Assembly (NCBI GenBank): GCA_964618315.1
Contig: CAZTWQ010000001.1
Coordinates: 6,877-70,876, forward strand
Direction of reading: 5' to 3'
DNA length: 64,000 nt
Source: an uncultured Methanosarcinales archaeon
GTDB lineage: Archaea; Nanobdellota; Nanobdellia; Woesearchaeales; JACPBV01
This document shows, piece by piece, positions 2,647 through 61,176 of this stretch. Within the stretch, counting starts at the first letter, position 1; each line of letters starts with the position of its first letter. Below the pieces are notes generated by a model. The model saw only the letters and a program-made list of their open reading frames with translations, had not been told where the DNA came from and did not search any database. The position numbers were made by a program, and so were the translations under genes.

Positions 2647-2913
2647 CTACTTTTTAACAAATAAACCGCACCAACACATCCCCTTATTTTTCCATGTGTC
2701 TTGTGCTTTAAAATTGCAAGGGCAGATTAGTTCTAAATCTCTTTGTCTAGTGTTGTCCTTTAATCTGCATGGGCAAAGTTTTAGTTTGTGTTTTTCTTCA
2801 TTTGCTAAAACTCCTTTTATGACCATATCAACATGTTCTTTATCTGGATTTAGCTGAAAATCATTATTGTTTGTGAAGTTTTCCCATGCTTGCCTTAATT
2901 GATCTGGATTCAT
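2647..2913 (-). CDS. ferredoxin:thioredoxin reductase catalytic-subunit-like protein
   Basis: A CPC...CPC...CWC motif arrangement matches the FTR catalytic-chain pattern CPCx(n)CPCx(n)CHC. Confidence 0.6.
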   Translation of the reverse strand: MNPDQLRQAWENFTNNNDFQLNPDKEHVDMVIKGVLANEEKHKLKLCPCRLKDNTRQRDLELICPCNFKAQDTWKNKGMCWCGLFVKK

Positions 2914-3125
2914 AGTTCCATCACGTTCTTTGCTTCTTCTTTGTCAATTTCAACATAAACATTCTTTTGTTGACATGTTGGACATATCTCTGGTCCAGAA
3001 TTACCATAATGGATGTCGTTGCAAACTGTGCATCTAAAAAATCTCTTTCCCACTTCAGAAACACCTGCCACAATTAACGCATGGAGTGCACCTTCTGGAG
3101 TCAGGAGATTCATACTTAACTTCAT
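2910..3125 (-). CDS. rubredoxin-like zinc-ribbon domain protein, apparently split from the FTR-like gene
   Basis: C-terminal CTVC...CPTC motif; its stop overlaps the start of the FTR-like gene by 4 nt (ATGA). Confidence 0.45.
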   Translation of the reverse strand: MKLSMNLLTPEGALHALIVAGVSEVGKRFFRCTVCNDIHYGNSGPEICPTCQQKNVYVEIDKEEAKNVMEL

Positions 3126-13090: not shown

Positions 13091-14137
13091 TTATCCTGAA
13101 TAATCATATTTATTCATTTTAAATCCAGAATTAACCCTATGTCTTATTGTGCTTGGAGGTATATTAATTAGGGGTGATATTTTATAAGGAGTTAATCCTT
13201 TTTCTGTTAATTCTTTTATTCTTATATTCTGATTATTTATCTTTTCAAATCTTTTTTGATAATGATTTAAAGCATTCGAAAGTTTTTTTCTTTTTTCAGG
13301 ATGAGTAAATCCAATTAGTTTACTATATCTAAGGATTGATTTATTGCGGCCTATTGTGATAGTTGGTTCAGAAATCCTAGATTGAATTCCTAAGTCTTCC
13401 AATAGGGATTTGATGAATAGGAGCTCTTCCTCGCACTTTTGTGATCCACTAACAGAAAACATGCCTTTTTTTAGATTGAAATGGACACAACCTTCATCAT
13501 CAAAGAAAGCCTTTAGATATATTTTTTTGTATTCATCATTAGTTATTATGATAGTTTTATCAAAATTAAGAATATCTAAATGCATTAATTTGGAAGAGTA
13601 AATAAGTTGAGTTACTCCTGAACCTACTTTTGATCTTGTTGGTTTTAATCCATAAACAAAGCCCATATCATTTTCAAATTCACTTAATAATTCTTGATTT
13701 TTGTTTATGTAACTAATTACATAAGAGTTATTTTTACTAACATAACCATCAAATATTGAATGTGCATAGATCCTTACTTTTTCTTTGGTTATTTTATCAA
13801 ATCCTTTTTTAAGGGGTTTAGGATAGATAGGAAATTGAACTTTCCCCTTAATGCAATCTTTTATGAAATTTATAGAATGGCCTGTAATTTTTCTAACTTT
13901 TCTTAGAGATTTAACTTTGTTATAAATCTTACATAGATTGTCAACTTTTTGGTTTTTCTTAATTCCTGCTATTTCACTATTAGATTTTATATGAATTCCA
14001 CCCTTGATTAATCTTTTCTTAATGCCTTCTCTTGAAAGTCCAAACTTTTTTGCTAAATTAGTTAATGTTATTCTTTTATCTAAGACATATATTTTTTCAA
14101 TTTCTTTAATTATTTCTTCTGATATTTTTTTTATCAT
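13091..14137 (-). CDS. LAGLIDADG-type homing-endonuclease-like protein with N- and C-terminal HTH domains
   Basis: Two LAGLIDADG-like motifs (HSIFDGYVS and KAFFDDEGCV), an N-terminal HTH (LTNLAKKFGLSREGIKKRL) and a C-terminal HTH (GLTPYKISPLINIPPSTIRHRV). Confidence 0.6.
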   Translation of the reverse strand: MIKKISEEIIKEIEKIYVLDKRITLTNLAKKFGLSREGIKKRLIKGGIHIKSNSEIAGIKKNQKVDNLCKIYNKVKSLRKVRKITGHSINFIKDCIKGKVQFPIYPKPLKKGFDKITKEKVRIYAHSIFDGYVSKNNSYVISYINKNQELLSEFENDMGFVYGLKPTRSKVGSGVTQLIYSSKLMHLDILNFDKTIIITNDEYKKIYLKAFFDDEGCVHFNLKKGMFSVSGSQKCEEELLFIKSLLEDLGIQSRISEPTITIGRNKSILRYSKLIGFTHPEKRKKLSNALNHYQKRFEKINNQNIRIKELTEKGLTPYKISPLINIPPSTIRHRVNSGFKMNKYDYSG

Positions 14138-14299
14138 CTTAAATCACCTCCATTTAAGATTTCTTTTAATTTATTGGAAGAAATCAGGGGGGTTGAAAAA
14201 AGATACCTGAAAGCTAAACTCCATAATTGATTTTTGTGTCTGAAAGATCAAAAATCATTATTTAGGAGTTTTGCATGGTCTCTTTTTTATTAAGAGTGT

Positions 14300-14430
14300 A
14301 GAATTACTCATTTATATATCCTGCGGGGGTGTCTGGCAAGTGGCAAGTGGGTGCCTAAAACTACTGTAACCATTAAATTTAGGCTCTAGAAGGCTTCTCG
14401 CACTTGCCAAAATTTTGGCAAGTGGGATGA
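14300..14430 (+). other. conserved upstream module A: TATA-like box followed by an array of GGCAAGTG motifs (two direct, one inverted, one direct); possible divergent ncRNA or operator array
   Basis: TTTATATAT at 14311; TGGCAAGTGGCAAGTGG at 14334..14350; CACTTGCCAAAATTTTGGCAAGTGGG at 14401..14426. Roughly 80% identical to the module at 41930..42055. Confidence 0.4.
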
Positions 14431-14440
14431 TTAACTTGAG

Positions 14441-15121
14441 TTATTTCTTCTTAGGTTCCTTTACAGAACCTCTTAAATACCAAACTAGAAGGTACACAAA
14501 TGGTGTGTCTGCTAACGCTAAAACTACTTTTAGAAGATAGTATGGAATTATTAATGTGAAAAGGTATGCCACATTGAACTTAGGGCTTGTGTTTAGGGTC
14601 TGTGGGAGCCAAGGTATGTAGTATAATGCTATGAACATGAACAGGACTGAATCCAGGAATTGTGATACTATGGTTGATGCGTTGTTTCTTAGCCATAGCC
14701 ATTTTCCTTTTGTCTTTTGTTTCCAGAAGTTGAATGCCCATACATCATGGAGCTGGCTGACTATAAATGCTAGTATAGATGCTATGAAGAACCTTAAAGA
14801 CATTCCAAAAACGGGGGTGTATTGTTCTGCCTGAACATAGCTTCTTGCAGCAAAAGGCAGTTTTACAGCTATTGCTGTAATTATTAAAACAAATAACATA
14901 CAGATAAAGCCAACCCATACGAACATCTTTGTTTTTTCTTTTCCATGGACTTCTTCAACTGCATCTGTTATCAAGAATGTTATGGGGTAAGCAAATATTC
15001 CCACACTTACCTGAATAACCCAGAATTGTGTGATCTTGCCACCTATCAGATTAGCAGCTATCAGTGAAGCTACAAATAGACCAAGTAGAAGATTTGTTTT
15101 AGATTTTAAGTCCCACTTCAT
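14441..15121 (-). CDS. yhhQ: queuosine/archaeosine precursor transporter (YhhQ/VUT family, DUF165)
   Basis: AYPITFLITDAVEEVHG matches the YhhQ signature (FPxTFxxTDxxxEVYG); 226 aa, polytopic. Confidence 0.7.
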   Translation of the reverse strand: MKWDLKSKTNLLLGLFVASLIAANLIGGKITQFWVIQVSVGIFAYPITFLITDAVEEVHGKEKTKMFVWVGFICMLFVLIITAIAVKLPFAARSYVQAEQYTPVFGMSLRFFIASILAFIVSQLHDVWAFNFWKQKTKGKWLWLRNNASTIVSQFLDSVLFMFIALYYIPWLPQTLNTSPKFNVAYLFTLIIPYYLLKVVLALADTPFVYLLVWYLRGSVKEPKKK

Positions 15122-31539: not shown

Positions 31540-32316
31540 ATGAAAACGCAAAATTTAACTCAAAAATTGAACTTTTATGAATTGATTGGAGTTATTTTGG
31601 GGGATGGATGTATAAAATACTATCCTTCACATAAAGTATATACCCTAGAAATAACTGGAGATGCAAAAGATGATCAAGAATATTTTAGTAAATTATCGAA
31701 GTTAATTACAAGTATAACTAATAAAACTCCAACTGTTAGAATAAGCATAGATAAGAAAAAGCGAGCCTTGAGATTAGAATTACACAGTAAAAAGTTTTTG
31801 GAGTTTTTATTGAACGATGTAGGAATAACTAATAAAAAGAAATCATTCAATGCAGAAATCCCTAAGAAGTACCTAGAGTGGAAATATAGTAAACATATTA
31901 TTAGAGGCATATTTGAAACAGATGGTTCACTTTATTTTTCAAAATCAAAAAAGATTAAATACACTTCTTATCCAAGGATAGAAATTAAGACATCTAGTAA
32001 AAAATTAGCTTTGCAAATATTTGAATTGCTCAAACAAAAAGCTTTTAAAGTACAAAAGAGACCTAGCAAAACAGATAAGACAATTAGAGTCTATCTTAGT
32101 GGATCTGAAATGCTTAATAAATGGTTAAAAGAAATCGGTTTTTCAAGTATGAAAAAATACAGTAAATATTTGTTTTGGAAAAAATTTGGTTATTATATTC
32201 CAAAAACACCTTATAAGAAAAGAATGATTCTCATAAGGGAGCATGGCCAAGTGGCTAAGGCGTCCGCCTGCAGAGCGGATATTCGGGGGTTCAAATCCCT
32301 CTGCTCCCTCTTATAA
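31540..32316 (+). CDS. LAGLIDADG-type homing-endonuclease-like protein (paralog 2); the ORF reads through tRNA-Cys
   Basis: Motifs IGVILGDGCI and IRGIFETDGSL. The last 27 codons or so are encoded by the tRNA-Cys sequence, so the true C-terminus is uncertain. Confidence 0.5.
   Translation: MKTQNLTQKLNFYELIGVILGDGCIKYYPSHKVYTLEITGDAKDDQEYFSKLSKLITSITNKTPTVRISIDKKKRALRLELHSKKFLEFLLNDVGITNKKKSFNAEIPKKYLEWKYSKHIIRGIFETDGSLYFSKSKKIKYTSYPRIEIKTSSKKLALQIFELLKQKAFKVQKRPSKTDKTIRVYLSGSEMLNKWLKEIGFSSMKKYSKYLFWKKFGYYIPKTPYKKRMILIREHGQVAKASACRADIRGFKSLCSLL
32237..32308 (+). tRNA. tRNA-Cys (GCA)
   Basis: Hand-folded cloverleaf: acceptor GGGAGCA/TGCTCCC, anticodon stem TCCGC/GCGGA with loop CTGCAGA, T-loop TTCAAAT; 72 nt with no encoded CCA; immediately upstream of cysS. 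Confidence 0.8.
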
Positions 32317-32348: not shown

Positions 32349-33746
32349 GTGATAAATATGTTAAAACTATACAATACACTAGGCAGAAAGAAAGACGTTT
32401 TTGAGCCTATCAATAAGAAAGAAGTAGGGATGTATAGTTGCGGGCCTACTGTTTATAACTTTGCCCACATAGGTAATTTTAGGGCTTATATAGTTGCAGA
32501 TCTTCTGAAAAAATATCTTAAGTTTAAAGGATTTAATGTAAAGCATGTAATGAATATTACAGATGTTGATGATAAGACAATAAAGGGCTCTATACAAGAG
32601 AAGATTTCTTTGAAAAAGTATACTAAGAAATATACTGATGCATTTCTTAGTGATCTTAAAACATTAAATATCTCAGAAGCAGATATATTCCCAAGGGCAA
32701 CAGATCATATCAATGAGATGGTTGCAATGATTCAGAAGCTTAGCGACAAGGGACTTGCATATAAAGGAGAAGACGGGTCATGGTATTATAGTGTTTCTAA
32801 GTTTAAGAACTATGGAAAGCTTTCAAGACTTAAGTTTGAAGGGTTGAAAGAAGGTGCAAGAGTAAAACAAGATGATTATGATAAAGATCAGGCTCAGGAT
32901 TTTGCTTTGTGGAAAGGTTATTCTAAAGAAGATGGTGATGTTTTTTGGGAAACTTCGCTGGGTAAAGGTCGTCCTGGGTGGCATATTGAATGCAGTGCAA
33001 TGAATACTAAGTATTTAGGTAATGGTTTTGATATACATACTGGTGGAATTGACCTAGTGTTTCCACACCATGAAAATGAGATAGCTCAAGCAGAAGGATG
33101 TACTGAAAGCCCTTATGTAAACTATTGGGTGCATAATGAGCATCTACTTGTTGATGGGAAGAAAATGAGCAAGTCACTAGGTAATTTTTATACTCTTCGT
33201 GATCTGCTTGATAAAGGGTATAGTGCAGTTGCTATAAGATATCTTTTGTTGAGTACGCATTATAGGCAGCAAGCTAATTTTACATTTAAGGCTCTTGAGG
33301 GAGCTAAAGGTGCTGTTGATAAGCTCAATAATTTTATATTTGTCTTAGGGGGCATGGATTGTGATGAAGATGTTGGCAATATAGATGAACTTATCAAAGA
33401 GACCAGAGCTGCTTTTGAGATGAAGATGGACGATGATTTGAATATTTCTGGTGGGTTAGCTGTTATCTTTGACTTCATGAGTGATGTCAACAAGCTTCGC
33501 CTGAGCAAGGACGATGCTTCAAAGGTAATTTCATTTATGAAAGAAGTTGATGCTATATTGGGTGTTATGGATTTTAAAAAGAATGATGAGAATATTCCTA
33601 AAGATATAGAGAGTCTGATCAAGTCGAGAGAAGACGCCAGAAAGAATAAAGATTTTGATAAGGCGGATAAGATAAGGGATGATCTAAAGGAAAAAGGGAT
33701 TGAATTGATAGATACTCCTGAAGGAGTCCGGTGGAAGAAGGTTTAA
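32349..33746 (+). CDS. cysS: cysteinyl-tRNA synthetase
   Basis: HIGN and KMSKS class-I motifs and a CysRS zinc-site context; 465 aa. Confidence 0.9.
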
Positions 33747-40852: not shown

Positions 40853-40998
40853 GGGGCTGTAGCTCAGCCTGGGAGAGCACTAGACTGAAGTTCCTATGAT
40901 CTGCAGAGGCTTTTGCCGATGAAGAGCAGAGATCTAGGTGTCCTGGGAAGTCGCAATACCATGTGCGTCTTGGGAAAATTCAAATTCCGGCAGCCCCA
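40853..40998 (+). tRNA. tRNA-Phe (GAA) with a canonical 41-nt intron at position 37/38 and a predicted second intron of about 31 nt in the T-arm
   Basis: 5' half GGGGCTGTAGCTCAGCCTGGGAGAGCACTAGACTGAAG; exon 2 A-TCTAG-GTGTC-CTGGG; exon 3 TTCAAATTCCGG-CAGCCCC-A. The mature length would be 74 nt with a standard cloverleaf. Confidence 0.7.
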
Positions 40999-41765
40999 CT
41001 CTTTTTTAAACCTTTTATTATTTTAGGGGGTCTTCCTTTTTTACTTGTGATTGTTCCACTTTTTAGATATTCTTCATACTTATTAAGATGTCTTTGGTTT
41101 CTAAAACCAATTAATTTCATCCATAATTGAAGGTTTTGACGACCACTTAATCTTAATCTGCTTTCAATCCAAGTTTTTCCAAACCTTTTATCAAAATTTC
41201 TATCTTCTGGAATAAAGTCAACATTAAAACCTAATTTTTCTAGAAATTTTGAGAATAGTATGATTATTTTTTTATCCACTAAACTTAAAGATATTACTGG
41301 GTAATGTGGATATTTCTTTCTATTTCTATAGAGCATTAAAGAAAAATCTGTATCTGCTAATCCCTTAAGGGTGTGTAGAAGATAATCTTGGTTATTGAGT
41401 ATCCAATTTGGAATTTTAATATTCCTACTATGATGTTTATAGTATCCCATTCCCTTAATGAAATTGAATAATCCTAGTGAACTGAAGTTAATTTCTATTA
41501 AATTCTTATATTTCCTTTGGATAATTTTAACATTTATGTTAAAAAGGTTTTTGATTAAATTTTTTACATAGTGAAAATAATCATAATCTAATCTAGAATC
41601 TCCTGATACAGATATGATATTATATCTAGTATTAAAGCTAACATGCCCATCTCCTGCCAGTATACCAATAAACTCTGCTAATTTTTTAGATGGTCCCTTA
41701 GGTAAAACTAAGCCTCGTTTTCTATCTACATGACTAAATTCTATTTTTGATATATCAAATTCCAT
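40980..41765 (-). CDS. LAGLIDADG-type homing-endonuclease-like protein (paralog 3)
   Basis: Motifs IGILAGDGHVS and LKGLADTDFS; the 3' end overlaps the 3' end of tRNA-Phe on the opposite strand by about 19 nt. Confidence 0.55.
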   Translation of the reverse strand: MEFDISKIEFSHVDRKRGLVLPKGPSKKLAEFIGILAGDGHVSFNTRYNIISVSGDSRLDYDYFHYVKNLIKNLFNINVKIIQRKYKNLIEINFSSLGLFNFIKGMGYYKHHSRNIKIPNWILNNQDYLLHTLKGLADTDFSLMLYRNRKKYPHYPVISLSLVDKKIIILFSKFLEKLGFNVDFIPEDRNFDKRFGKTWIESRLRLSGRQNLQLWMKLIGFRNQRHLNKYEEYLKSGTITSKKGRPPKIIKGLKKSGAAGI

Positions 41766-41929
41766 CTTAAATCACCTCCATTAAGATTTCTTTTCATTTA
41801 TTGAAAGAAATTCTTGGAGATTTGAAAAAAGAGGTCAAAGAGCGAAACTCTGTAATTGATTTTCTAGAAAGTGGAAAATCATTATTTAACAGTTTTGCGT
41901 GAACTCTTTTTTATTAAGAATGTAAAAAT

Positions 41930-42055
41930 ACTAGTTTATATATCTGGCGGAGGTGGTTGGCAAGTGGCAAGTGGGGGTGCTAAAACAGCTAATTCATTAG
42001 AATTTAAATGATAGAAGGCTTCTCGTCACTTGCCAAAATGTTGGCAAGTGAGATT
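41930..42055 (+). other. conserved upstream module B (paralog of module A): TATA-like box plus a GGCAAGTG motif array
   Basis: TTTATATAT at 41936; TTGGCAAGTGGCAAGTGGG at 41957..41975; CACTTGCCAAAATGTTGGCAAGTG at 42027..42050. The whole 41766..42070 stretch is homologous to 14138..14440. Confidence 0.4.
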
Positions 42056-61020: not shown

Positions 61021-61080
61021 ACTGAAACAATATTATAAATATTATAAAAGGTTTTCTAAAAAACTTTATTTAAAAAAGCC

Positions 61081-61176
61081 CTTGGGAAGAGTTGCACTCC
61101 CGACCTGCTGATTACGAATGCTGAGTTGAAGATAAACAACTGTCAGCCGCAATAGCTACTATGCTACAAGGGCATG
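61081..61176 (-). ncRNA. tRNA-like structured RNA candidate (possibly an intron-containing tRNA), followed by a T-run
   Basis: On the minus strand there is a perfect 7-bp terminal helix (GCCCTTG/CAAGGGC), a D-arm-like segment and an anticodon-arm-like hairpin (GCTGA...TCAGC) around a CAGTTG loop. It is followed by TTTTTT. Confidence 0.3.

What the first reader, a model, noticed from the sequence alone, without database searches (positions are those of the whole stretch)
13091..14137. Family of three free-standing LAGLIDADG+HTH genes, two of them sitting against tRNA genes
Paralogs lie at 13091..14137, 31540..32316 and 40980..41765, each with two LAGLIDADG-like motifs plus HTH segments. One ORF reads straight through tRNA-Cys, with its last 27 codons or so encoded by the tRNA. 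Another overlaps the 3' end of an intron-containing tRNA-Phe on the opposite strand. Free-standing homing-endonuclease-like genes are normally found inside introns or inteins, not next to tRNA loci. They could be domesticated regulators, remnants of tRNA-associated mobile units, or endonucleases acting on the adjacent tRNA genes.
Basis: partly seen in the sequence, partly recalled or inferred. Interest (0 to 1): 0.7.

Follow-up and report, generated by a model that had tools for sequence, protein, structure and literature searches.

The report
Homing-endonuclease genes docked against tRNA genes
In this small-genome (DPANN/Woesearchaeota-type) archaeon, intact free-standing LAGLIDADG endonuclease genes sit directly against particular tRNA genes, and related genomes show each branch of the family tied to one tRNA species, which points to selfish nucleases that use tRNA genes as landing sites.

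Summary
ORF2 (31540..32316, +) runs through tRNA-Cys(GCA) (32237..32310). ORF3 (40980..41765, -) overlaps by 19 nt the 3' end of a two-intron tRNA-Phe(GAA) (40853..40998, +).

ORF2 and ORF3 are true paralogs (29% identity). ORF1 (13091..14137, -) is a separate HTH-LAGLIDADG-HTH family. It abuts no tRNA; it abuts the 3' end of a Vut_1 transporter gene.

The tRNA adjacency recurs:
- All 22 ORF2-family loci abut tRNA-Cys.
- The ORF3 clade abuts tRNA-Phe.
- Other clades abut initiator-type tRNA-Met, Thr, His, Asn and others.
- tRNA density at the ORF 3' end is about 18 times that elsewhere in the loci.

Both catalytic aspartates are essentially invariant. The predicted folds match I-DmoI and I-Tsp061I. 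The tRNA-encoded tails are variable and predicted disordered, so they look incidental. Some copies are frameshifted, and one locus shows an empty tRNA-Arg/tRNA-Cys site.

Best reading: free-standing homing endonuclease genes specialised on tRNA genes, comparable to phage T4 SegB. No cleavage has been shown.

The leader hides the ribosome-binding site and has no Rfam match.

The parts
31540..32316 (+). ORF2, a 258-aa monomeric double-motif LAGLIDADG protein of the tRNA-Cys-linked clade. The conserved part ends near residue 232; residues 233-258 are templated by tRNA-Cys.
   Evidence: AF2 mean pLDDT is 88.6, with the tail 236-258 below 50. Foldseek top hits are the TliVMA intein endonuclease, I-Tsp061I, I-SceI and I-DmoI.
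32237..32310 (+). tRNA-Cys(GCA), without an intron in this genome, starting inside ORF2 codon 233. A TATA-like CCTTATAAG at 32209..32217 lies within ORF2 codons.
   Evidence: Every ORF2-family locus has a tRNA-Cys at this position, with 0-3 introns.
32349..33746 (+). Cysteinyl-tRNA synthetase gene directly downstream of tRNA-Cys. It is context, not part of the element.
   Evidence: The synteny is kept only in the closest relatives L001, L002 and L018.
40853..40998 (+). tRNA-Phe(GAA) with two inferred introns: about 40891..40931 in the anticodon loop (37/38) and about 40948..40978 between the T-stem 5' strand and the T-loop. A TATA box TTTATATA lies about 30 nt upstream.
   Evidence: Sequence. 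Infernal on the small region gives 28.6 bits, model positions 1-71, with insertions of 44 and 40 nt. Exact intron borders were read by eye and are not validated.
40980..41765 (-). ORF3, a 261-aa LAGLIDADG protein of the tRNA-Phe-linked clade. Its last 19 nt, stop codon included, are antisense to the T-loop, T-stem and acceptor 3' strand of tRNA-Phe. It has a C-terminal AT-hook-like KKGRPPK.
   Evidence: Homolog tails of the form '..G-x-x-G-I*' are antisense tRNA 3' ends.
41766..41917 (-). 5' leader of ORF3. The three-helix structured core is at 41821..41917, followed by a hairpin that pairs the Shine-Dalgarno GGAGG.
   Evidence: Alignments A5 and A8, covariation test, covariance model hit of 89.8 bits, MFE z-score -3.7.
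41918..42050 (-). Promoter and operator module of ORF3: TATA at 41935..41943, tandem GGCAAGTG at 41959..41975, and a 24-bp near-palindrome CACTTGCCAAAATGTTGGCAAGTG (one central mismatch) at 42027..42050.
13091..14137 (-). ORF1, 348 aa: two N-terminal HTH bundles, a double-motif LAGLIDADG core (118-274), a long helix and a C-terminal HTH. It is a separate family and is not tRNA-linked.
   Evidence: AF2 mean pLDDT 84.7. Foldseek hits PI-PfuI, I-Tsp061I and I-DmoI, with WhiA lower in the list.
14138..14293 (-). 5' leader of ORF1, homologous to the ORF3 leader (79% identity over about 290 nt, promoter included). The structured core is at 14192..14293, followed by the hairpin that sequesters the Shine-Dalgarno sequence.
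   Evidence: 94.2 bits; z-score -4.3.
14294..14428 (-). Promoter and operator module of ORF1: TATA at 14311..14319, tandem GGCAAGTG at 14335..14351, and the perfect 24-bp palindrome CACTTGCCAAAATTTTGGCAAGTG at 14401..14424.
14441..15121 (-). Vut_1 (YhhQ-like queuosine-precursor transporter family) gene. Its 3' end abuts the ORF1 cassette. It is the conserved neighbour of the ORF1 family.
   Evidence: The cassette abuts the Vut_1 3' end in both orientations across genomes.

Best explanation
ORF2 and ORF3 are free-standing LAGLIDADG homing endonuclease genes from a large, diversified family in DPANN archaea. Each lineage of the family is docked against one particular tRNA gene.

Proposed mechanism (inferred, not shown):
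1. The enzyme recognises a long DNA site in or at the edge of the cognate tRNA gene in genomes that lack the cassette.
2. It makes a double-strand break there.
3. Recombinational repair from a cassette-bearing copy co-converts the adjacent endonuclease gene. This is 'intronless homing', as described for phage T4 Seg and Mob enzymes.
4. Tight apposition of the ORF's 3' end to the tRNA maximises co-conversion. It also explains why reading frames spill into the tRNA sequence: sense strand for tRNA-Cys, antisense for tRNA-Phe.

ORF1 is a second, HTH-decorated LAGLIDADG family that does the same at the 3' end of the Vut_1 gene.

Expression of ORF1 and ORF3 is probably kept low. They share a portable promoter/operator and a structured leader RNA that occludes the ribosome-binding site.

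What is shown:
- gene structure and predicted fold;
- conservation of the active-site residues;
- clade-specific, recurrent tRNA linkage;
- decay of some copies;
- one empty site;
- covariation in the leader.

What is inferred:
- nuclease activity;
- the target site;
- homing itself;
- the regulatory role of the leader.
For: - Fold and active site. Pfam LAGLIDADG_2, _3 and _WhiA hits. AF2 models with mean pLDDT 88.6 and 84.7 match I-Tsp061I, I-DmoI, I-SceI and PI-PfuI. The catalytic Asp are kept in 85/86 and 86/86 relatives and are invariant in alignments A2, A3 and A7.
- Recurrent adjacency. 58 of 95 usable loci have an automatically called tRNA at the ORF 3' end, a density of 2.44 per kb against 0.14 per kb elsewhere. 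Cases the software missed and I inspected by eye turned out to be multi-intron tRNAs.
- Clade specificity. All 21 ORF2-family genome loci plus the window abut tRNA-Cys. Thirteen ORF3-clade loci abut tRNA-Phe. Another clade abuts an initiator-type tRNA-Met. The NJ tree groups by tRNA identity.
- The HEG-tRNA pair outlasts the surrounding synteny.
- Filled versus empty site. L046 has tRNA-Arg(TCT) and tRNA-Cys about 50 nt apart. Seven ORF2-family loci have the gene between those two tRNAs.
- Decay, as expected for selfish endonuclease genes. Homologs in L017, L018 and L021 are frameshifted, and ORF3 is split in one population variant, L110.
- The tRNA-encoded tails are not conserved and are predicted disordered.
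- The ORF1 cassette abuts the Vut_1 3' end in either orientation, as expected for site-specific insertion.
- Two unrelated endonuclease families share the same 5' module, which is modular exchange typical of mobile genes.
Against: - No cleavage, target site or homing event is demonstrated.
- No empty site was found within the same population. The one empty site, L046, comes from a distant genome.
- The ORF2/tRNA-Cys linkage persists from 100% down to 44% protein identity with the active site intact. That could equally reflect long vertical retention under host-level selection, i.e. a domesticated function.
- The family is essentially absent from viral contigs, so no vector for horizontal spread is evident.
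- Frameshifts in metagenome-assembled genomes can be assembly errors. L110 has only about 5x coverage.
- How the resident tRNA allele escapes cleavage is unknown.
Confidence: 0.6

Rival explanations
1. Domesticated LAGLIDADG proteins. The genes are host genes retained vertically. They bind, and perhaps nick, DNA at their neighbouring tRNA locus to serve the host, for example in transcription control of the tRNA (as WhiA is a LAGLIDADG-derived regulator), in locus maintenance, or in protecting tRNA genes from integrating elements.
For: The ORF2/tRNA-Cys pairing is conserved across 22 loci from 100% down to 44% identity. Core residues are under strong purifying selection. Reduced DPANN genomes nevertheless keep several copies; this 64-kb window alone has three. 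Expression control is elaborate, with an operator plus a structured leader. The ORF2 coding end contains the probable tRNA-Cys TATA region. ORF1 carries three HTH modules and its model also resembles WhiA, though more weakly.
Against: WhiA-type domestication goes with loss of the catalytic acids, whereas here they are invariant. Several copies are frameshifted or split. One window tRNA, tRNA-Thr at 61077..61173, has no such gene beside it. The same tRNA-Cys can carry an endonuclease gene of a different clade on its other side, or none between tRNA-Arg and tRNA-Cys. There are many lineages for many tRNAs but no universal set.
Confidence: 0.2
2. Collaborative (trans) homing of tRNA introns. The endonuclease cleaves the intron-less allele of the adjacent tRNA gene at an intron insertion site. 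The small archaeal intron interrupts the recognition site and gives immunity. Intron and endonuclease gene then spread together, as with F-CphI and the psbA intron in cyanophage, or mobE and I-TevIII in T4.
For: Adjacent tRNAs are often heavily interrupted, with up to three or four insertions. Insertions between the T-stem and T-loop, the part of the tRNA nearest a convergent endonuclease gene, occur in the window tRNA-Phe and in the whole tRNA-Met clade. T-arm introns were found in 10/46 adjacent tRNAs, all convergent, against 4/43 elsewhere. The phage precedents are in PMC6083498 and PMC2790892.
Against: That enrichment is not significant (Fisher p=0.15). Overall intron frequency is no higher in adjacent tRNAs (33/51) than in other tRNAs (36/43). 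The window's tRNA-Cys and those of L008, L014, L015, L019 and L020 have no intron yet keep an intact endonuclease gene.
Confidence: 0.12
3. Coincidence or annotation artefact. Compact genomes place many genes next to tRNAs, and long mechanical ORFs simply run on into them.
For: The read-through tails themselves are incidental.
Against: There is an 18-fold excess of tRNAs at this one position across about 100 independent loci. The tRNA identity is clade-specific.
Confidence: 0.02

Closest known systems
Phage T4 SegB and other free-standing Seg/Mob homing endonucleases ('intronless homing')
   Same: A free-standing endonuclease gene lies between or against conserved genes. SegB lies inside the T4 tRNA gene cluster and promotes preferential inheritance of that region (my own knowledge; general review PMC2988022). 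An ORF2-type gene sitting between tRNA-Arg and tRNA-Cys is the same layout.
   Different: SegB is a GIY-YIG enzyme in a phage. Here the enzymes are LAGLIDADG and sit in archaeal chromosomes, have diversified into many lineages each tied to one tRNA species, and lie at zero distance from or overlapping the tRNA gene. Activity has not been tested.
Archaeal intron-encoded LAGLIDADG endonucleases (I-DmoI, I-Tsp061I, I-PorI) and intein endonuclease domains (PI-PfuI)
   Same: These are the best structural matches. They share the monomeric two-motif architecture with both catalytic acids and an archaeal host.
   Different: Those enzymes are encoded inside rRNA introns or inteins, on the same strand as the host gene. 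The genes here are outside any intron or intein, have their own promoter and leader, and ORF3 is antisense to its tRNA.
Collaborative or trans homing (F-CphI with the cyanophage psbA intron; T4 mobE with I-TevIII)
   Same: A free-standing endonuclease gene lies next to an intron-bearing gene (PMC6083498, PMC2790892). The window's tRNA-Phe has two introns beside ORF3.
   Different: No intron dependence is seen here, and the introns are of the archaeal splicing-endonuclease type rather than group I.
WhiA (bacterial LAGLIDADG-derived transcription factor with a C-terminal HTH)
   Same: ORF1 combines a double LAGLIDADG core with a C-terminal HTH. ORF2 hits Pfam LAGLIDADG_WhiA. WhiA appears among the fold matches for ORF1.
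   Different: WhiA has lost the catalytic acids (my own knowledge; not tested here). ORF1, ORF2 and ORF3 keep them. ORF1 has two extra N-terminal HTH bundles. Matches to WhiA are weaker than those to active endonucleases.
Free-standing LAGLIDADG ORFs in fungal and algal organelle genomes
   Same: Intergenic LAGLIDADG genes, often near tRNA genes, have been reported in mitochondrial genomes (for example PMC7748670 and PMC6506933, seen only in the search listing).
   Different: No lineage-by-lineage tRNA specificity or overlap with the tRNA has been described there to my knowledge. The domain of life differs.

Membership tests
LAGLIDADG homing endonuclease (monomeric, two-motif) | Two LAGLIDADG helices in one chain | tested here: met
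   Pfam PF03161, PF14528 and PF14527. Motifs: ORF2 LIGVILGDG and IIRGIFETDG; ORF3 FIGILAGDG and LKGLADTDF; ORF1 IYAHSIFDG and LKAFFDDEG.
LAGLIDADG homing endonuclease (monomeric, two-motif) | Conserved acidic residue at the end of each motif (metal-binding active site) | tested here: met
   D39 in 85/86 and D140 in 86/86 relatives. D22 and D128 are invariant in A2. D130 and E215 are invariant in A7.
LAGLIDADG homing endonuclease (monomeric, two-motif) | Alpha-beta-beta-alpha-beta-beta-alpha fold repeated twice, forming a DNA-binding saddle | tested here: met
   AF2 secondary structure and confidence. Foldseek probability 1.00 to I-Tsp061I, I-DmoI, I-SceI and PI-PfuI.
LAGLIDADG homing endonuclease (monomeric, two-motif) | Site-specific double-strand cleavage of a long DNA target | not testable with these tools
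   Needs purified protein and candidate substrates.
Homing (mobile) endonuclease gene | Presence/absence polymorphism at a fixed site, with copying into empty alleles | tested here: inconclusive
   One distant empty tRNA-Arg/tRNA-Cys site (L046) against seven filled sites. The ORF1 cassette occurs in both orientations at the Vut_1 3' end. No empty site was found within the same population.
Homing (mobile) endonuclease gene | Degeneration of some copies after fixation | tested here: met
   Frameshifted copies in L017, L018 and L021 and a split ORF3 in L110. Assembly error cannot be excluded.
Intron- or intein-encoded endonuclease | ORF lies inside a self-splicing intron, an archaeal bulge-helix-bulge intron, or an intein | tested here: not met
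   ORF2 lies upstream of a complete tRNA (model positions 1-71). ORF3 is on the opposite strand to tRNA-Phe. Both ORF1 and ORF3 have their own TATA box and leader. No host reading frame is interrupted.
WhiA-type regulator | Degenerate LAGLIDADG domains lacking the catalytic acids, plus a C-terminal HTH | tested here: not met
   Catalytic acids are retained. ORF2 and ORF3 have no HTH. Only ORF1 has a C-terminal HTH.
Any Rfam RNA family (for the shared 5' leader) | Match to a curated covariance model | tested here: not met
   Only the tRNA-Cys locus scores in the window, at the gathering threshold or at E<=1.

The most novel reading that the evidence does not exclude
These nucleases could be the missing engine of archaeal tRNA-intron mobility. 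Each lineage would cut the intron-less form of 'its' tRNA gene, so that short archaeal introns (too small to carry a gene) and the neighbouring endonuclease gene spread together. The shared structured leader would be a new riboregulator that times expression. That would explain both the extreme intron load of DPANN tRNA genes and the unexplained gain and 'transposition' of archaeal tRNA introns.
Probability: 0.12. Interest if true: 0.9.

Novelty: new variant of a known kind. Interest (0 to 1): 0.7.

Why it matters
- Free-standing LAGLIDADG genes are known, but I found no description of a diversified archaeal family in which each lineage is locked onto one tRNA gene (literature searches).
- If the enzymes cut tRNA genes, tRNA loci in DPANN archaea are arenas of gene drive. 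That bears on why these tRNA genes are so fragmented by introns and why standard tRNA finders miss them.
- The family would also be a natural panel of meganucleases with related scaffolds and different, guessable targets.
- The shared leader is a candidate new structured RNA that controls selfish-gene expression in archaea.

Tried and rejected
- Default ARAGORN and whole-window Infernal missed tRNA-Phe. My brute-force intron removal followed by ARAGORN was noisy or empty. A small-region Infernal search settled it.
- PDB sequence searches for all three proteins found nothing useful. Fold search was needed.
- The idea that adjacent tRNAs are richer in introns was rejected: 33/51 adjacent against 36/43 elsewhere. 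T-arm introns are only suggestively enriched (p=0.15).
- A T-box-like reading of the leader, with a specifier matching the neighbouring tRNA's anticodon, was checked by eye in the P3 loops of leaders with known neighbours (sequences against identities). No consistent codon appeared.
- A k-turn in the leader's internal loop was considered. The loop sequence is not conserved.
- Carriage by viruses: only 2 weak hits in IMG/VR.
- ORF2 upstream region: no leader homolog and no tRNA-Arg in the window copy.
- ORF1-family loci: no tRNA found beside them.
- Same-population look-ups via the flanking proteins found no empty sites.
- An integrative element as the reason for tRNA linkage was considered. 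No integrase or island is present; the cassettes sit alone between housekeeping genes.

Full report
**What is in the window.** The window is low-GC (about 33%). Its close protein relatives are named Candidatus Woesearchaeota or Nanoarchaeota, so it comes from a DPANN-type archaeon.
- ORF2 (31540..32316, +) contains the whole of tRNA-Cys(GCA) (32237..32310). ARAGORN and Rfam both call it, at 65.4 bits.
- ORF3 (40980..41765, -) ends inside tRNA-Phe(GAA) (40853..40998, +).
- Standard tools miss that tRNA-Phe. An Infernal search of the small region aligns it over the full model at 28.6 bits (gathering score 29), with a 44-nt insertion in the anticodon loop and a 40-nt insertion before the T-loop.
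- ORF3's stop codon is the antisense of the T-loop, and the overlap is 19 nt.
- A third tRNA, tRNA-Thr with one intron at 61077..61173 (-), has no such neighbour.

**Are the three genes one family?** ORF2 and ORF3 are paralogs (29% identity, E=6e-20), and each hits the other's profile. ORF1 has no significant sequence similarity to either. It shares the fold: its AF2 model (mean pLDDT 84.7) shows two N-terminal helix-turn-helix bundles, a double LAGLIDADG core, a long helix and a C-terminal HTH. Its best fold matches are PI-PfuI, I-Tsp061I and I-DmoI. ORF2's model (mean pLDDT 88.6) matches the same active homing endonucleases and has no HTH. No solved structure is detectable by sequence alone.

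**Active sites.** The acidic residue that closes each LAGLIDADG motif is invariant in all three family alignments. In a broad set of 86 intact relatives it is present in 85/86 and 86/86 sequences. The motifs are therefore not degenerate.

**Is the tRNA adjacency recurrent?** Yes. I fetched 21 genome loci for the ORF2 family and 80 metagenome loci for the wider ORF3 superfamily, for which more than 354 relatives exist.
- I called tRNAs with ARAGORN in intron mode plus a simple acceptor/T-arm finder, whose false-positive rate is about 10% against shuffles.
- 58 of 95 usable loci have a tRNA starting within -100..+150 nt of the end of protein homology. That is 2.44 per kb against 0.14 per kb elsewhere in the same loci.
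- This is a lower bound. 'Negative' loci that I read by eye carry tRNAs with several or unusually placed introns: L001, L022 and L029, and a whole clade next to an initiator-type tRNA-Met with an insertion in the T-arm.

**Orientation.** Two layouts occur. In one, the ORF's 3' end meets the tRNA 5' end on the same strand (ORF2 type). In the other, it meets the tRNA 3' end convergently (ORF3 type). The conserved protein core ends 0-130 nt from the tRNA boundary.

**Clade specificity.**
- Every ORF2-family locus carries tRNA-Cys(GCA), recognisable by CTGCA in context, with 0-3 introns.
- Thirteen members of the ORF3 clade carry tRNA-Phe(GAA).
- A neighbour-joining tree of the proteins groups them by the identity of the adjacent tRNA: Cys, Phe, Met, His, a second convergent Cys pair, and so on.
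- Flanking protein genes are not conserved beyond the closest relatives. The endonuclease gene and the tRNA therefore stay together while the neighbourhood changes.

**The read-through is incidental.**
- Homolog C-termini differ. Many are recognisable translations of tRNA 5' halves ('GQVAKAS..') or of antisense 3' ends ('..GxxGI*').
- Some homologs stop before the tRNA.
- ORF2's tRNA-templated tail (residues 236-258) is predicted disordered.

**Signs of a selfish life cycle.**
- Three ORF2 homologs are frameshifted.
- One population variant has ORF3 split in two.
- In L046, tRNA-Arg(TCT) and tRNA-Cys lie about 50 nt apart with nothing between them. In seven ORF2-family loci the endonuclease gene sits between exactly those two tRNAs.
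- The ORF1 family always abuts the 3' end of a Vut_1 (YhhQ-like) transporter gene, in either orientation. Site-specific insertion would give that pattern.
- Against this, look-ups through flanking proteins found no empty site in the same population. The family is also nearly absent from viral contigs.

**Best explanation.** These are free-standing homing endonuclease genes that use tRNA genes (ORF2, ORF3) or the Vut_1 3' end (ORF1) as homing sites. The process would resemble 'intronless homing' by phage T4 Seg and Mob enzymes. SegB sits in the T4 tRNA cluster (my own knowledge; review PMC2988022). Cleavage, target and homing are all inferred. I put this at about 0.6.
- Main rival: domestication as locus-specific DNA-binding or nicking proteins (about 0.2). 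Deep conservation of the ORF2/tRNA-Cys pair favours it. Retained catalytic acids, decayed copies and the absence of such a gene beside some tRNAs count against it.
- Special case: trans homing that spreads the tRNA introns, on the precedents of F-CphI (PMC6083498) and mobE (PMC2790892). It is attractive but not supported statistically. Introns are no more frequent in adjacent tRNAs. T-arm introns are only suggestively enriched (10/46 against 4/43, p=0.15). Intron-less tRNA-Cys genes still keep intact endonuclease genes.

**An additional finding.** The roughly 300 nt upstream of ORF1 and of ORF3 are 79% identical to each other, although the proteins are unrelated in sequence. Homologous sequence precedes ORF1 homologs in other genomes. 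It also precedes about a quarter of the ORF3-like metagenome loci, where proteins share only about 30% identity yet an approximately 80-nt leader core is 80-87% identical.

The module, read in the sense direction, consists of:
- a 24-bp palindrome and tandem repeats of GGCAAGTG (CACTGGACA in other genomes);
- a TATA box;
- a roughly 100-nt three-helix RNA that starts at about the expected transcription start;
- a hairpin that pairs the Shine-Dalgarno GGAGG.

The three-helix structure is supported by covariation. 87.9% of cells are paired against 77.3% in shuffles. There are 64 double-change cells against 27.8, reached by 0 of 500 shuffles. Slid controls give 40-57%. A covariance model scores the sense strand at 70-105 bits and the antisense strand at 26-45 bits. 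No Rfam family matches. I read the module as a portable expression-control unit that keeps endonuclease translation low. That function is inferred.

**Novelty.** Three full-text searches found no paper linking LAGLIDADG genes to tRNA genes in DPANN archaea. I rate this a new variant of a known kind: free-standing homing endonuclease genes, here with lineage-by-lineage tRNA specificity, physical overlap with the tRNA, and a dedicated structured leader.

Noticed in passing
window 14138..14428 and 41766..42050 (sense strand is -): A shared promoter/operator plus structured 5' leader lies upstream of ORF1 and ORF3. The two copies are 79% identical, covariation supports the structure, the Shine-Dalgarno sequence is paired in a hairpin, and no Rfam family matches. 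The module also occurs upstream of many related endonuclease genes in other genomes.
   Followed up: yes
window 14335..14351, 14401..14424, 41959..41975, 42027..42050: GGCAAGTG half-sites occur as a tandem pair and as a 24-bp palindrome (perfect in the ORF1 copy, one central mismatch in the ORF3 copy) just upstream of the TATA boxes. Other genomes have CACTGGACA or CACTCGCCA repeats at the same place, and the palindrome is kept by compensating changes (L028). This is probably an operator for an unidentified DNA-binding protein; HTH-bearing ORF1 is a candidate.
   Followed up: partly
window 14441..15121 (-); L102-L108: The ORF1 family is always adjacent to the 3' end of a Vut_1 (YhhQ-like queuosine-precursor transporter) gene, in two opposite orientations across genomes.
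   Followed up: partly
window 40853..40998 (+); L001 4697..4817; L022 1108..1335; L043, L051, L078, L083 downstream of the ORF: tRNA genes in these organisms carry one to several introns at non-canonical positions, including between the T-stem and T-loop. ARAGORN and filtered Infernal miss many of them. tRNA-Cys is intron-less in the window but has two introns in the 68%-identical relative L001.
   Followed up: partly
window 61077..61173 (-): tRNA-Thr (ARAGORN anticodon call CGT) with one roughly 24-30-nt intron. Only intron-mode ARAGORN and small-region Infernal find it (42.6 bits). It has no LAGLIDADG neighbour.
   Followed up: yes
window 32209..32217: A TATA-like CCTTATAAG lies about 25 nt upstream of tRNA-Cys, inside the conserved P-Y-K-K codons of ORF2. 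The tRNA promoter, if this is it, is embedded in coding sequence. Alternatively the tRNA is co-transcribed with ORF2 and released by RNase P.
   Followed up: no
window 40980..41060 (ORF3 residues ~236-250): The close ORF3 clade has a C-terminal extension of about 25 aa with an AT-hook-like GRP motif (KKGRPPK, IGRPQLK). Other clades lack it.
   Followed up: no
L065 ~2860..2915: One leader copy carries an insertion of about 55 nt in the 3' strand of helix P2. The covariance model still finds it, at 56.5 bits.
   Followed up: no
L046 3772..3990 (-): tRNA-Arg(TCT) and tRNA-Cys(GCA) lie in tandem about 50 nt apart, with an endonuclease gene of a different clade convergent on the tRNA-Cys 3' end. 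Relative to the ORF2 family, this is an empty ORF2-type site.
   Followed up: yes
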